This document shows, in pieces, positions 1 through 2,667 of a stretch of 64,000 nucleotides of DNA. Position 1 is the stretch's first letter; the number at the start of each line of letters is the position of its first letter. The stretch is taken from the IMG/VR virus record IMGVR_UViG_3300024255_000019; one strand, written 5' to 3'. Under the pieces are notes generated by a model, which was given only the letters and a program-made list of their open reading frames with translations, did no database searches and was not told the DNA's origin. The DNA is from an uncultured virus (IMG/VR IMGVR_UViG_3300024255_000019). Taxonomy: Duplodnaviria; Heunggongvirae; Uroviricota; Caudoviricetes. The translations under genes were made by a program, and so were the position numbers.

Positions 1-86
1 GGCCGTCGTGGGTCTTAAATGGTAGAGCTATTAACTCCGTGATTCCATCTCGCCGTCATGGTTTATCCCACCAATTTTTTTAACTT

Positions 87-377
87 TTACCTTCTAGCTT
101 TGTAGCTATATGTTAATCTTTCTTGTGATGCCTTTTTGAGCCATCTCTTTCTGCCCTCTGCAGCTTTACGCTTTCTTTTTGCAGTTGGCTTTTCATAAAA
201 TTCTCTAGCTCTTAGTTCTTTTACGATCCCAGCTTTTTCAATCTGTTTTCTAAATTTTCTAAGTGCTATATCAAAAGGCATATCACTTTGAGGCCTTCTA
301 TCTTTTGGATGTCTTGGCCCTGGTCTCAAATCAACGGTTCTACCGTTAATTGGTTTATTTTTATTATTGTATCTCAT
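87..377 (-). CDS. rpsU: 30S ribosomal protein S21 (phage-encoded bS21)
   Basis: [38 protein letters not shown] matches the bS21 signature. Start moved to ATG 377, directly below a promoter. Confidence 0.93.
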
Positions 378-384
378 AGGTATT

Positions 385-413
385 ATTATAACATAACAAA
401 AACGATTTGTCAA
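385..413 (-). promoter_or_regulatory. sigma70-type early promoter for rpsU
   Basis: TTGACA (413-408), 17 bp spacer, TATAAT (390-385), with TGn extension. Confidence 0.85.
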
Positions 414-473
414 CATGTTTTTGTAATTAATTTAAAATGTTTCTTATAATATATTTTGTATACTATAAGAAAC

Positions 474-501
474 AAAAAAGAGAGCCCTTGTGAGGCCCTC
501 T
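474..501 (-). terminator. Rho-independent terminator closing the large ncRNA
   Basis: Minus strand has a GAGGGCC...GGCTCTC stem (one G-U pair) followed by a T-tract. Confidence 0.85.
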
Positions 502-1037
502 TCGTAAATCAGTTTGGGGCGGTGAACCTTTATTAACGGGATTCGTCAAGTAGTGTAGAATCGTTAATCGTTGTTCTGCCGCTACCCCGAGCTTAAAGCC
601 CCTATTATTGAAACTTAAAGTCGACTGACTGGCCTAGGACTTACGTCTTACTTTGTTAATATCAGTATTCCAAGTAGGGGTAGCAATTAAGCCTCCTAAA
701 TTTCCTAAAGATAAAGACCCTTGACCGCTAAGTCATTGTGTCGTTATAAATCGCAAAATCTATAACCTGTCTCGTTTCAGCACTGCGGGGTTTCTCTCCC
801 ACTATGGTATCAAGCGTTTCCTCATACCCTGGCTCGTCTCAGTCTATATTGATTTGTTCTATCCCGCCATATTATCACTTTCCAGCGCGGTCTTCCTCAA
901 GCTACCGTACGGGGTGTCCACCTTTAATCTTGCCTCTGAACGATCGATAAAGTCGTCATCTCGTGCAAACTGTCTCCGCGGTATCTAACATACGTTTTGT
1001 TAGTTTCTCTTACCACCGGGGGTGTTTCCCTCAATAT
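474..1037 (-). ncRNA. candidate large structured non-coding RNA (~560 nt), family unassigned
   Basis: No ORF of 60 aa or more; more GC-rich than its flanks; bounded by a consensus promoter and a terminator; several visible helices (581-588/677-684, 743-766, 806-828, 985-1003). Confidence 0.75.
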
Positions 1038-1043
1038 AAGATA

Positions 1044-1072
1044 ATTATATCAAGTTGTTTCGTCTTTGTCAA
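1044..1072 (-). promoter_or_regulatory. sigma70-type promoter driving the large ncRNA
   Basis: TTGACA (1072-1067), 17 bp, TATAAT (1049-1044), upstream A-tract. Confidence 0.88.
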
Positions 1073-1143
1073 CCCTTTTTTGAAAATAATTTAAAAAAGT
1101 TTTGATTAGAATGTCCAATCATTGATGATTAATTATAAGAGTT

Positions 1144-1172
1144 ATTATAACACGCTATATTGTATTTGTCAA
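1144..1172 (-). promoter_or_regulatory. second sigma70-type promoter, 100 bp upstream of the first
   Basis: TTGACA (1172-1167), 17 bp, TATAAT (1149-1144). Confidence 0.85.
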
Positions 1173-1190
1173 CCCTTTTATGAAAAACAT

Positions 1191-1243
1191 TTTTATGTCC
1201 ACTAAAGTGCGAGACTTCTACACTTTTATGTCCACTAAAGTGC
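1191..1243. repeat. 20-bp perfect direct repeat, period 33
   Basis: TTTTATGTCCACTAAAGTGC at 1191-1210 and 1224-1243. Confidence 0.95.
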
Positions 1244-1244
1244 A

Positions 1245-1739
1245 TTAACTCTTCTTGTTTTGTTTTTCCATATAGGCTGAACACTTGTCATAAGCTTTTT
1301 GGTCAACAACACCTTCTGATAATAGCTTCTGTCTATTCTTTAAATGTGCTGATTGTGTATCTTCTTTGCTTCCACCAGTATATGGAACACAATGGCCTTC
1401 TTTTGCCATAATTTCTGTAGCCATACACCATCTATCTTCTTTGCCGTAATAAACACTAAAGTCACCAAGGATTCTACCAAACTTCCCTTTGGCATCTTCT
1501 CCACCTCGACCTTTAAATGTCTTTAATACAACATCTTTCTTTAATAATTCTTTTAATGCTTTCTTCGCTGCAAGTCCAAATAGTTTTTCAACCTTGTCAC
1601 GCGTACGAGACTCTGGTGTATCAATGCCCATAATACGAACACGCTCGTTACGAAGCCAAATACCAAAACCCAAGTCAATGTCGACATCAACTGTATCTCC
1701 ATCTACCACTTTAATTAATTTTGCTTTATACTCATACAT
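1245..1739 (-). CDS. thermonuclease (SNase-like) family nuclease
   Basis: VVDGDTVDV, RIMGIDTPE and GKFGRILG motifs; RBS AGGAG. Confidence 0.9.
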   Translation of the reverse strand: MYEYKAKLIKVVDGDTVDVDIDLGFGIWLRNERVRIMGIDTPESRTRDKVEKLFGLAAKKALKELLKKDVVLKTFKGRGGEDAKGKFGRILGDFSVYYGKEDRWCMATEIMAKEGHCVPYTGGSKEDTQSAHLKNRQKLLSEGVVDQKAYDKCSAYMEKQNKKS

Positions 1740-1847
1740 TATATGATTCTCCTGTTAGTTGAAGATATTTATCTTCTTTTGCACCAAACACGAATCCACC
1801 ATTTGAAGTACTTTCGTCCTTCACCATAAGCTGCCGACTCTAATCTA

Positions 1848-1973
1848 TTATATAACAAATTCAATAAAAGCTACTATTGAAATAGCTAACCACATTGCTA
1901 ATCCGATAACCAGAATTAACAAAATAGAAGCTTGTCCTATCTTGTCGAGGAAATGCTGTAGCCAATCCCACAT
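1848..1973 (-). CDS. small membrane protein (41 aa)
   Basis: Translated by hand: MWDWLQHFLDKIGQASILLILVIGLAMWLAISIVAFIEFVI; abuts neighbouring genes. Confidence 0.55.
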   Translation of the reverse strand: MWDWLQHFLDKIGQASILLILVIGLAMWLAISIVAFIEFVI

Positions 1974-1975
1974 AA

Positions 1976-2119
1976 TTATTTACCTTGTCCGCGATACTTT
2001 TTAAATCCACGCTTTTTGGACTTATTCATCGTTGACATACTTTTTGGTCTTTTACCAATGCTCGTACCTTTTTTCACCCCGTTGTGAGATGTAGAGAACG
2101 CGCTAGTCTTTACTGCCAT
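1976..2119 (-). CDS. small basic protein ending KKYRGQGK (47 aa)
   Basis: Translated by hand; C-terminal KKYRGQGK motif is typical of small proteins in marine T4-like phages. Confidence 0.75.
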   Translation of the reverse strand: MAVKTSAFSTSHNGVKKGTSIGKRPKSMSTMNKSKKRGFKKYRGQGK

Positions 2120-2363
2120 ATCTTTTTTCCTTTAAAAATTCTAATAGAGATGTATAATCTCCTATGTATTCATTATCAACAAAAATGTTTGGGATTACAT
2201 TAGTATTTGCTTTACCTTCAACACACTCTAAGTAATATTTACGAATAGAGCGATCGTAGTATTCATAATCAATACCAAATTTATCACATTCTTTTCTTGC
2301 TTTATCACATACGCCACAATCTCTTTGGCCGTATATTTTAATCTTTTGTTGGGGCTTTTGCAT
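2103..2363 (-). CDS. glutaredoxin-like protein
   Basis: IYGQRDCGVC (CxxC) and VIPNIFVDNEYIGDY; start moved to MQKPQQ. Confidence 0.85.
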   Translation of the reverse strand: MQKPQQKIKIYGQRDCGVCDKARKECDKFGIDYEYYDRSIRKYYLECVEGKANTNVIPNIFVDNEYIGDYTSLLEFLKEKRYGSKD

Positions 2364-2667
2364 TCCACTTAGATACGAATTGTAGTTTCTTTTCTCTATC
2401 CCAATCTTTTGCAAGCTCAGGATTCTCTTTGTCAAACCATCTAAGCATATGGTCTTCGTCGATAATATCAACTGATGCAATGGTTTCACCTAACCATCTT
2501 TGACTGAATTCGTTTACCTCTTCGCAAGTTACAACGTCACTGGCCCACTCTTCTGCGAGCTTATCAGTGAGTTTTACATCAGGATTGGTTTCTTGCAAAC
2601 CATCCATCGGAATCATATATGTTTGTCTAAAGCTAGACACACATTCCACTTTTACATACTTCTTCAT
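2338..2667 (-). CDS. hypothetical phage protein
   Basis: ORF with GAGG RBS in a minus-strand operon. Confidence 0.75.
   Translation of the reverse strand: MKKYVKVECVSSFRQTYMIPMDGLQETNPDVKLTDKLAEEWASDVVTCEEVNEFSQRWLGETIASVDIIDEDHMLRWFDKENPELAKDWDREKKLQFVSKWNAKAPTKD

What the first reader, a model, noticed from the sequence alone, without database searches (positions are those of the whole stretch)
474..1037. ~560-nt ORF-free structured RNA with its own promoter and terminator
Seen: the only large non-coding block in a densely packed window. It starts just below a perfect TTGACA-17-TATAAT promoter and ends in a GC hairpin with a U-tract. Visible helices: GCTACCCC/GGGGTAGC (677-684 with 581-588), a 9-bp hairpin at 743-766, GGTAT/ATACC (806-828), CTAACA/TGTTAG (985-1003), GAC-GTAA-GTC (638-647), and possible 5'/3' pairing CGGTGG/TCACCG. 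A 15-nt motif recurs (CTGAGACGAGCCAGG at 828-842 and CTGAAACGAGACAGG at 766-780), as do G(A)GAAAC loops. Established: phages carry large ornate ncRNAs in this size range (ROOL, GOLLD). Inference: a member of such a class or a new one. It is flanked by a thermonuclease gene and rpsU, either of which could be a partner. I could not assign it to RNase P, tmRNA or an intron.
Basis: partly seen in the sequence, partly recalled or inferred. Interest (0 to 1): 0.85.

Follow-up and report, generated by a model that had tools for sequence, protein, structure and literature searches.

The report
New large folded RNA, ocean phages
A marine T4-like phage carries a separate gene for a roughly 560-base, intricately folded RNA that makes no protein, matches no catalogued RNA family, and is kept by dozens of related uncultured ocean phages; its job is still unknown.

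Summary
A perfect TTGACA-17-TGnTATAAT promoter sits at 1072..1044 and an 11-pair terminator at 503..477.

- **Non-coding block:** it lies in the largest stretch of the window free of ORFs of 60 aa or more, 417-1244.
- **Family:** pattern scans of IMG/VR and metagenomes plus nhmmer gave 31 distinct full-length relatives. All 31 keep the promoter at the same distance from an invariant 5' end.
- **Fold:** on three model-fitted alignments, 64 of 80 distinct base pairs change on both sides and stay paired. Paired cells are 89-98%, against 60-78% in shuffles and 29-49% in slid controls. This includes two helices joining RNA positions 194-209 to 401-415.
- **Known families:** no Rfam family matches, and two cultured relatives lack it.
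- **Transcription hint:** RNA-library contigs from three studies cover it.
- **Neighbours:** S21 and SNase each lie next to it in only 7 of 31 variants.
three of six are confirmed, two are contradicted and one is unsupported.

Verdict: a real, uncatalogued class of large phage ncRNA. It is most like ROOL and GOLLD in kind but is not a member of either. Its function is unknown.

The parts
1044..1072 (-). Promoter P1 of the RNA gene: TTGACA, 17-nt spacer, TG-extended TATAAT. The transcript starts 6-7 nt downstream, at about 1037.
   Evidence: 12 of 12 consensus matches. A -35 TTGAC(A/T) and a -10 TATAAT stand at the same distance from the invariant ATATTGAGGG in 31 of 31 variants, while the spacers differ.
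1144..1172 (-). Second perfect promoter P2, 100 nt upstream of P1. It may add a longer transcript.
   Evidence: 12 of 12 matches. RNA-library contigs 915-1124 (X3) and 911-1111 (X5) run across the P1 start.
474..1037 (-). The whole RNA gene, about 564 nt. RNA position p equals 1038 minus the window coordinate.
845..1037 (-). 5' domain (RNA 1-193).
- Invariant 5' end AUAUUGAGGGAAACACCCC.
- H1: 1019-1011 with 983-976.
- H2: 1003-998 with 990-985.
- H3: 969-965 with 933-929.
- H4: 957-953 with 943-939, with a conserved UUAUC loop.
- Invariant AGGUGGA at 923-917.
- Three-way junction of H5 (913-909 with 867-863), H6 (907-904 with 891-888) and H7 (887-884 with 879-876, GGAA loop).
- Conserved joiner AUAGAACAAAUCAAUAUAG.
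   Evidence: 19 of 23 pairs change on both sides, and 88.8% of cells are paired against 60.5% in shuffles. H5-H7 are 94-100% paired. Invariant columns are listed.
623..844 (-). Central domain (RNA 194-415), closed by two long-range helices.
- HA: 844-839 with 628-623.
- HB: 833-829 with 637-632.
- H10: 828-820 with 814-806.
- H11: 800-798 with 790-788.
- H12: 766-758 with 751-743.
- H13: 735-732 with 725-722.
- H14 (long-range): 713-710 with 663-660.
- H15: 698-692 with 680-675.
   Evidence: 36 of 44 pairs change on both sides. 94.7% of cells are paired, against 69.8% in shuffles and 34-42% in slid controls. HA is 94% paired and H14 is 100% paired with 4 of 4 pairs covarying.
506..622 (-). Optional 3' domain (RNA 416-532). 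It consists of a small hairpin, then GGGGUAGCGGCAGAAC paired with GGUUCACCGCCCC around a conserved inner hairpin (UUAAC/GUUAA and GAUUC/GAAUC).
   Evidence: The GGGGTAG form is present in 9 of 31 variants. A shorter form occurs in others, and the domain is absent where a terminator or another element follows helix HA directly. For the outer stem, cognate strands give -12.4 kcal/mol against -5.4 for non-cognate strands (n=92). The inner stems hardly vary.
468..503 (-). Intrinsic terminator: 11-pair stem at 503-477, then a U run.
   Evidence: It is kept in the close relatives L150 and L343.

Best explanation
This is a free-standing gene for a large (about 430-nt core, 564 nt here), intricately folded non-coding RNA. 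The family is not in any catalogue searched, and it is carried by uncultured marine T4-like myoviruses whose nearest cultured relatives are Pelagibacter phage HTVC008M and Methylophilales phage Melnitz.

**Shown**
- It has its own consensus host-type promoter and its own terminator.
- It has a conserved multi-domain fold with long-range helices.
- It has no conserved reading frame.
- Its gene neighbours vary.
- It is present in RNA libraries.

**Inferred**
- It is made early and abundantly by the host sigma-70 polymerase. It acts in trans as a stable folded RNA rather than as a leader of a neighbouring gene (about 0.85).
- The mechanism I think most likely (about 0.35-0.4) is that of the other phage-borne ornate RNAs, ROOL and GOLLD. 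That is an RNA-only or RNA-rich particle, possibly multimeric, that acts on the host's translation or tRNA machinery during takeover.
For: **Gene signals**
- Promoter and terminator are found.
- The promoter is kept in 31 of 31 variants with differing spacers.

**Family**
- 32 of 36 distinct IMG/VR candidates match by nhmmer.
- 17 of 120 metagenome loci match.
- 37 of 115 loci from a third motif scan match.

**Fold**
- 13 of 20, 19 of 23 and 36 of 44 pairs change on both sides. That is 64 of 80 distinct pairs, because H10 is counted twice.
- Paired cells are 97.7%, 88.8% and 94.7%, against shuffled means of 77.7%, 60.5% and 69.8%. No shuffle in 500 reached the observed value.
- Slid controls give 29-49%.

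**Not coding**
- The only recurrent frame (UUG at RNA position 4) is open in 21 of 31 variants with lengths of 30-58 aa, and closed in 10, including the near-identical L343.

**Not a leader**
- Downstream genes differ: S21 in 7 of 31, hemC in 13, a small membrane protein in 15.
- A terminator and a fresh promoter separate the RNA from S21.

**RNA libraries**
- Contigs identical to the window cover 517-1124 in runs of three studies. Per-contig word depths are up to 168 (X2), 30 (X3) and 16 (X5).

**Likeness in kind to ROOL and GOLLD**
- It is phage-borne.
- A tRNA-Glu gene lies just downstream on the same strand in 8 of 30 other variants.
- ROOL and GOLLD are described as phage or prophage RNAs often near tRNA islands (passages of 10.1101/2024.12.08.627333).
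Against: - No function is shown by any search.
- Single-sequence folding is not better than shuffles (z = -1.47).
- The three alignments were fitted to my structure, and the sequences fall into a few clades, so the shuffle counts are not probabilities.
- All runs laid were contigs. Strand, ends and level cannot be read from them, and DNA can be present in RNA libraries.
- No sequence or model similarity to ROOL or GOLLD was found, so the mechanistic analogy rests on size, carrier and context alone.
- tRNA adjacency holds in only 8 of 31 variants, and not in the window.
- The family was found only through exact motifs, so its true spread is unknown.
Confidence: 0.8

Rival explanations
1. The RNA is a binding partner of ribosomal protein bS21 (phage or host) or of the 30S subunit. 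It would present a look-alike of the 16S 3' tail and Shine-Dalgarno duplex, as OLE RNA does, and so retune translation initiation.
For: - S21 lies directly downstream in 7 of 31 variants.
- In the one 73%-complete genome, S21 lies 30 kb from the RNA.
- OLE RNA binds bS21 at a Shine-Dalgarno/anti-Shine-Dalgarno mimic formed by AGUAGG and CCUCCU (PMC12054373, abstract and section 6).
- Here H15 has AGGAGG or AGUAGG as its 5' strand.
- H14 keeps a pyrimidine strand (CUCC in some variants) against a purine strand (GGAG) through all its changes.
- AGGUGGA is invariant in 31 of 31 variants.
- A second non-coding RNA follows the S21 gene.
Against: - Only 10 of 57 phage S21 loci carry the RNA.
- 5 of 5 longer S21-bearing fragments lack it, though they are only 18-49% complete.
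- Three RNA-bearing fragments lack S21 in what is held.
- H14 and H15 covary freely, so their Shine-Dalgarno-like letters are not conserved.
- Short purine and pyrimidine matches arise easily by chance.
- An earlier, similar claim in this scan partly fell on later checking.
Confidence: 0.13
2. It is a ribozyme, for instance one that processes the phage's own tRNA or RNA precursors.
For: - Its size, its many invariant unpaired stretches and its long-range helices are typical of large ribozymes.
- tRNA-Glu follows on the same strand in 8 of 30 other variants.
Against: - There is no match to RNase P, group I or II introns, or any other catalytic family in Rfam.
- The tRNA link is absent in 23 of 31 variants.
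- In L141 a hairpin with a U run stands between the RNA and the tRNA.
Confidence: 0.1
3. It is a decoy or sponge that ties up a host factor early in infection, such as a defence nuclease, an RNase, or another RNA-binding protein.
For: - The early-type consensus promoter implies high output.
- It appears in RNA libraries.
- It moves between genomic contexts like an accessory cassette.
Against: - No defence or counter-defence gene was seen beside it.
- A decoy rarely needs about 80 conserved pairs and long-range helices.
- Nothing in any call points to a target.
Confidence: 0.1
4. It is a cis-acting leader or attenuator of the downstream gene (rpsU in this window).
For: It lies upstream of and co-directional with S21 here.
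Against: - A strong terminator (503..477) and a separate perfect promoter (413..385) lie between it and S21.
- The downstream gene differs in 24 of 31 variants.
Confidence: 0.03
5. It is not a functional RNA, but a decayed gene or a mobile-element remnant that is conserved only because the phages are close relatives.
For: - Single-sequence folding is unremarkable.
- Variants fall into a few clades.
Against: - Compensatory changes occur in 64 of 80 pairs.
- The 5' end and the promoter position are invariant in 31 of 31 variants, while spacers and flanks differ.
- No frame is conserved.
Confidence: 0.02

Closest known systems
[quoted passage not shown]
   Same: It is a large ornate ncRNA carried by phages and prophages, often beside tRNA genes, of unknown function. 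A marine example lies downstream of a tRNA (passages of 10.1101/2024.12.08.627333). Like this family it has a conserved part and a variable part. Here a tRNA-Glu follows in 8 of 30 other variants.
   Different: The Rfam model gives no match even at E up to 10. This RNA is smaller (430-570 nt, against often more than 800). Here the 5' and central core is universal and the 3' domain is optional, whereas in GOLLD the 3' region is the universal part. Assembly into a cage is untested.
ROOL RNA (rumen-originating, ornate, large)
   Same: It is about the same size, is phage or prophage-borne and often near tRNA islands, has no known protein partner, and is highly structured with long-range pairings.
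   Different: There is no model match. The hosts and habitat differ: marine T4-like myoviruses here. Whether it multimerises is unknown.
OLE RNA and its bS21 site
   Same: It is an ornate RNA of about 600 nt. OLE binds ribosomal protein bS21 at a Shine-Dalgarno/anti-Shine-Dalgarno-like helix (PMC12054373, abstract and section 6). Here an S21 gene is the next gene in 7 of 31 variants, and two helices have a purine strand against a pyrimidine strand.
   Different: There is no model match. OLE is a chromosomal RNA of Bacillota with membrane protein partners. Here the carrier is a phage, and the S21 link is loose (10 of 57 S21 loci).
Small stable RNAs of phage T4 (species 1 and 2) and promoter-plus-stem-loop cassettes of T4-type phages (both recalled, not read here; named in earlier findings)
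   Same: These are non-coding genes or cassettes of T4-type phages that have early promoters and stem-loops and sit in plastic regions with shifting neighbours.
   Different: They are far smaller and simpler. No homology was tested.

Membership tests
GOLLD / ROOL / OLE / raiA / HEARO and every other Rfam 15 family | A match to the family's covariance model | tested here: not met
   Over the whole window at gathering score, only 3 tRNAs match. Over 300-1300 at E up to 10, there are only six chance-level sRNA or miRNA rows. Over 15 homologous loci at E up to 0.1, only tRNA matches.
GOLLD / ROOL (as a kind) | Carried by phages or prophages, often beside tRNA genes | tested here: met
   The window encodes T4-type replication genes, and its nearest relatives are HTVC008M and Melnitz. 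tRNA-Glu(UUC) lies downstream on the same strand in 8 of 30 other variants, but not in the window.
GOLLD / ROOL (as a kind) | Self-assembly into closed multimeric RNA particles | not testable with these tools
   This needs purified RNA with cryo-EM or mass photometry.
OLE-like bS21-binding RNA | A helix that mimics the Shine-Dalgarno/anti-Shine-Dalgarno duplex, with conserved G-C pairs, and that is bound by bS21 | tested here: inconclusive
   H14 and H15 pair a purine strand with a pyrimidine strand (AGGAGG or AGUAGG; CUCC/GGAG in some variants), but their letters covary. Binding cannot be tested here.
RNase P RNA, tmRNA, group I and II introns | A model match, or an ARAGORN tmRNA call | tested here: not met
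   Rfam. ARAGORN found no tmRNA in 31 loci, including L156, which is identical to the window's region.
Cis-regulatory ribosomal-protein leader | Lies in the 5' UTR of the regulated gene and is linked to it across relatives | tested here: not met
   A terminator and a new promoter lie before S21. S21 is downstream in only 7 of 31 variants.
Structured ncRNA gene (general) | Compensatory base-pair changes across relatives, its own transcription signals, and no conserved frame | tested here: met
   64 of 80 distinct pairs; 31 of 31 promoters; no frame in all variants.

The most novel reading that the evidence does not exclude
The RNA is a phage-made stand-in for part of the small ribosomal subunit's mRNA-binding platform. 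It would display a 16S-tail/Shine-Dalgarno-like helix and an invariant AGGUGGA. It would capture bS21 (the phage's own copy, encoded next door in some genomes) or whole 30S subunits, so that initiation is shifted toward phage messages. Together with the second RNA that follows the S21 gene, it would form a small phage 'translation takeover' island.
Probability: 0.12. Interest if true: 0.9.

Novelty: new variant of a known kind. Interest (0 to 1): 0.75.

Why it matters
Only a handful of bacterial or phage RNAs of this size and complexity are known: rRNAs, RNase P, tmRNA, introns, OLE, GOLLD, ROOL, raiA and HEARO. Each has proved to be a ribozyme, a ribonucleoprotein core or a self-assembling particle.

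This family adds a well-supported new class. It has about 80 conserved pairs, long-range helices and many invariant unpaired stretches. It comes from abundant ocean phages of the pelagimyophage type, and it appears in marine RNA libraries.

Because its promoter is a perfect sigma-70 consensus, the RNA can be made directly in E. coli or in vitro for SHAPE, cryo-EM and binding tests. That makes it possible to ask whether 'ornate' phage RNAs share a common job, and whether phage-encoded S21 has an RNA partner.

Tried and rejected
- **Cultured phages.** blastn ('distant') of 440-1080 against 50,697 phage records gave no match. Model R1 on HTVC008M found nothing. On Melnitz it gave two weak places (E 0.037 and 0.74). 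The better one lies inside annotated ribonucleotide-reductase genes and is not backed by R2 or R3, so I rejected it.\n- **Bacterial genomes.** 0 of the 120 loci returned by the 16-mer scan of species genomes are homologs by nhmmer. Single-pair covariation ranking was too noisy. mafft-qinsi is not installed. I therefore built three covariance models from in-register seed sets and realigned all variants.\n- **Parts of the lay-out without contig cover** (for example the SNase gene in X2, X3 and X5) are not evidence, since contigs cannot show absence or rank genes. The un-laid runs that hold about 0.1-0.2 of the words are not used as evidence either.\n- **S21 co-occurrence** is uninformative. Of four RNA-bearing records, one (73% complete) has S21 and three (21-29% complete) do not. 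Five S21-bearing fragments (18-49% complete) lack the RNA.\n- **Pairing of the core UUAAC with the 3' domain GUUAA** was considered and dropped in favour of a local continuous hairpin within the 3' domain.\n- **Formal pair counting on the 3' domain** was not done. MAFFT broke the outer stem, and the inner stems hardly vary. A cognate versus non-cognate strand test was used instead.\n- **Literature.** No description of this RNA was found in four full-text searches. The IMG/VR survey PMC10690425 reports only candidates of 29-151 bases (passages). Its searchable supplements hold none of six sample numbers of my contigs, but files 1, 2 and 4 were not searched. Fragments of this RNA could therefore be among its candidates.

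Full report
**1. What is in the sequence**

All genes at this end of the window run on the minus strand. Read on that strand, the order is as follows:
- the SNase-family gene at 1245-1739 (PF00565);
- a perfect TTGACA-17-TATAAT promoter with a TG extension at 1172..1144;
- a second perfect promoter at 1072..1044;
- about 560 nt without any long frame;
- an 11-pair GC-rich hairpin at 503..477 with a U run;
- a third perfect promoter at 413..385;
- the S21 gene at 87-377 (PF01165; promoters and terminator).

The stretch 417-1244 is the largest part of the window free of ORFs of 60 aa or more, at 828 nt against 356 nt for the next. The RNA runs from about 1037 down to about 474. Folding this one sequence is not better than shuffles (z = -1.47, with 9 of 100 shuffles as good; the plus strand gives +0.30). 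Anything said about structure must come from comparison.

**2. The carrier**

The window encodes T4-type replication and nucleotide-metabolism genes: DNA polymerase, primase, helicases, topoisomerase II, NrdA and NrdB. The best tblastn matches of one large protein are to Pelagibacter phage HTVC008M and Methylophilales phage Melnitz, at 44-50% identity over part of the protein. The window's own assembly is not held. An IMG/VR fragment, G001, is identical over the region.

**3. A family**

- The single sequence found relatives by nhmmer in 15 of 139 loci fetched around SNase and S21 relatives. That is 3 of 80 SNase loci, 10 of 57 S21 loci and 2 loci of G001.
- Two motifs that are invariant in those relatives were then used for exact scans of IMG/VR, giving 44 and 29 loci. 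These hold 36 distinct sequences, of which 32 match the query at E of 0.01 or better.
- The same 16-mer in metagenome contigs returned 120 loci, of which 17 are homologs. In one-genome-per-species bacterial contigs it returned 120 loci, of which none is.
- A third motif returned 115 IMG/VR loci, of which 37 are homologs. All of them start at model position 1, 2 or 9, so no clade without the 5' end turned up.
- After removing duplicates there are 31 distinct full-length cores, with mean column identity 60%.

No Rfam 15 family matches the window, the region at E up to 10, or 15 homologous loci at E up to 0.1. INPHARED phages give no blastn match. HTVC008M and Melnitz give no credible model match.

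**4. Transcription signals are part of the family**

In 31 of 31 variants a -35 TTGAC(A/T) and a -10 TATAAT lie at the same distance (6-7 nt) upstream of the invariant ATATTGAGGGA(A/G)ACACCCC. The 17-nt spacers and the upstream DNA differ. This fixes the 5' end and suggests host sigma-70 transcription, that is, early expression. The latter is inference from the T4 paradigm.

The 3' ends differ between variants:
- The window and its close relatives end at a terminator after a 3' domain.
- L197, L192 and L165 have a terminator directly after the core.
- Others run into another conserved element.
- In 8 of 30 other variants the RNA is followed by a further conserved piece and a tRNA-Glu(UUC) gene on the same strand.

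**5. The fold**

Plain MAFFT alignments misplace the variable hairpins. I therefore read helices from the alignments and wrote them onto seed alignments of sequences that were in register. I built three covariance models, R2 for RNA 1-114, R1 for 112-234 and R3 for 190-418. I then realigned all variants to them and counted pairs.

| Alignment (RNA region) | Pairs changed on both sides | Cells paired | Shuffled mean | Shuffles reaching observed | Slid controls |
|---|---|---|---|---|---|
| A6 (1-114) | 19 of 23 | 88.8% | 60.5% | 0 of 500 | 29-49% |
| A5 (112-234) | 13 of 20 | 97.7% | 77.7% | 0 of 500 | 29-43% |
| A8 (190-418) | 36 of 44 | 94.7% | 69.8% | 0 of 500 | 34-42% |

H10 (7 pairs, 4 of them with changes on both sides) is in both A5 and A8. 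The totals are therefore 80 distinct pairs, of which 64 show compensatory change.

The most telling helices are long-range:
- HA (RNA 194-199 with 410-415) reads GACUGA/UCAGUC in the window, GGUGGUAC/GUACCACC in another clade and GUGGGUA/UACCUAC in a third.
- H14 (325-328 with 375-378) is paired in 100% of cells, with all four pairs covarying.

Two caveats apply. The alignments were fitted to my structure, and the sequences form a few clades, so the shuffle counts overstate significance. The slid controls and the multiplicity of pair types per column are the sturdier evidence.

**6. Architecture in the window** (coordinates are listed under 'parts')

- **5' domain.** It has two stem-loops and a three-way junction. 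Invariant unpaired stretches include AAGAGAAA, UUAUC, AGGUGGA and AUAGAACNAAUCAAUA(U/G)AG.
- **Central domain.** It is closed by HA and HB and contains five further helices.
- **Optional 3' domain.** Its outer stem changes as a unit between variants. Cognate strands give -12.4 kcal/mol and non-cognate strands -5.4 (n=92).
- **Terminator.**

**7.

- Three are confirmed: H2, H10 and H12.
- GCTACCCC/GGGGTAGC is not supported. Only 2 of 9 variants with GGGGTAG have the complement, and 3 variants have GCTACCCC without GGGGTAG.
- CGGTGG/TCACCG is contradicted, because CGGUGG belongs to H1.
- GAC-GUAA-GUC is not kept in the divergent clades. This was read by eye.
- The repeated 15-mer is peculiar to the window's clade.

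**8. Not coding, not a leader**

The only frame that recurs starts at UUG at RNA position 4. It is open in 21 of 31 variants with lengths of 30-58 aa, and closed in 10, among them L343, which is nearly identical to the window. It has no room for a ribosome-binding site, since it begins 3 nt from the transcript start.

The neighbours differ:
- Downstream: S21 in 7 of 31, porphobilinogen deaminase in 13, a small membrane protein in 15.
- Upstream: SNase in 7, and other small proteins in 12-14.

All of these neighbours are co-directional with the RNA. With its own promoter and terminator, the RNA behaves as a separate cassette that has been shuffled among phage genomes.

**9. Expression**

A search for runs holding window 1-2400 listed 20 rows that hold part of it, 11 on record as RNA, from 11 studies. 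I laid four RNA runs from four studies.

- **X2, X3 and X5.** Contigs identical to the window cover 634-811, 633-811, 791-854, 825-913, 915-1124, 517-811, 782-854, 825-940 and 911-1111. Per-contig word depths are up to 168 (X2), 30 (X3) and 16 (X5). A variant contig covering 782-940 has depth 233 in X2.
- **X6.** A 926-nt contig from a relative spans the RNA and runs into the SNase gene.
- **Limits.** These are contigs. They show that the sequence is present in RNA libraries of several studies, but not its strand, ends or level, and DNA may be present in such libraries.
- **Upstream promoter.** Two contigs cross the P1 start site, so some transcription from the upstream promoter P2 is possible.

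**10. How it most likely works**

Shown: it is an independently promoted and terminated, conserved, elaborately folded, non-coding RNA gene of marine T4-like phages.

Inferred: it acts in trans (about 0.85). Among mechanisms, I rank them as follows:
- **ROOL/GOLLD-like (about 0.35-0.4).** A stable RNA-only or RNA-rich particle acting on translation or tRNA metabolism. This rests on size, phage carriage, partial linkage to a tRNA gene, and what is written of ROOL and GOLLD. They are phage or prophage RNAs often near tRNA islands; both form cages; GOLLD binds ribosomes in pull-downs (passages).
- **bS21 or 30S binder (about 0.13).** The prompts are the OLE-bS21 result, the purine and pyrimidine strands of H14 and H15, and the invariant AGGUGGA.
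- **Ribozyme (about 0.1).**
- **Decoy (about 0.1).**

Gene order does not support a dedicated S21 or SNase partnership.

**11. Novelty**

No catalogue or paper searched describes this RNA. The one IMG/VR-wide survey reports only motifs of 29-151 bases, and its supplements could be searched only in part.

In kind it joins the few large ornate bacterial and phage RNAs. By homology it stands alone. I rate it a new variant of a known kind and of high interest, because the structure evidence is unusually strong and the RNA is directly testable.

Noticed in passing
window 1-86 (minus strand), read whole in L083:4292-4480: Directly after the S21 stop lies a further ORF-free stretch of about 190 nt. 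It is closed by UUGGUGG...CCACCAA plus a U run, has no Rfam match, and is followed by a fourth perfect promoter. It shares words with an earlier finding of a roughly 155-nt RNA after bS21 in another marine phage. S21 is thus flanked by non-coding RNA genes on both sides.
   Followed up: partly
window 385-413, 1044-1072, 1144-1172 (minus strand); L083:4486-4514: There are four perfect 12/12 TTGACA-17-TGnTATAAT promoters within 1.3 kb, each heading a short unit. This looks like the promoter-rich plastic early region of a T4-type phage.
   Followed up: partly
L141:2100-2250, and the same place in L142, L153, L160, L161, L163, L181, L412: Between the RNA's 3' domain and tRNA-Glu(UUC) lies another conserved piece of about 130 nt with apparently covarying hairpins (CCCUGAUUAGUCAUCAGG against CGCAGCUUAGUCGGCUG; GGUCCGGUAGACCGG against GGUCCUUUAGAAAGG). 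A long hairpin with a U run follows. There is no Rfam match.
   Followed up: no
window about 1191-1212 and about 1222-1243: A direct repeat of about 20 nt (two copies, 31 nt apart) lies between the SNase stop and promoter P2.
   Followed up: no
L143:2019-2861, and 12 further loci: A phage-borne porphobilinogen deaminase (hemC; PF01379 and PF03900) is the gene directly downstream of the RNA in 13 of 31 variants.
   Followed up: partly
window 87-377 (minus strand): The phage S21 has a basic N-terminal extension of about 31 aa ahead of the Pfam S21 domain, which covers residues 32-78.
   Followed up: no
L155:1498-1619: One IMG/VR contig holds only the first 120 or so positions of the family (nhmmer 1-120; R2 gives 66.5 bits; R1 and R3 find nothing). 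This may be a truncated or recombined copy.
   Followed up: no
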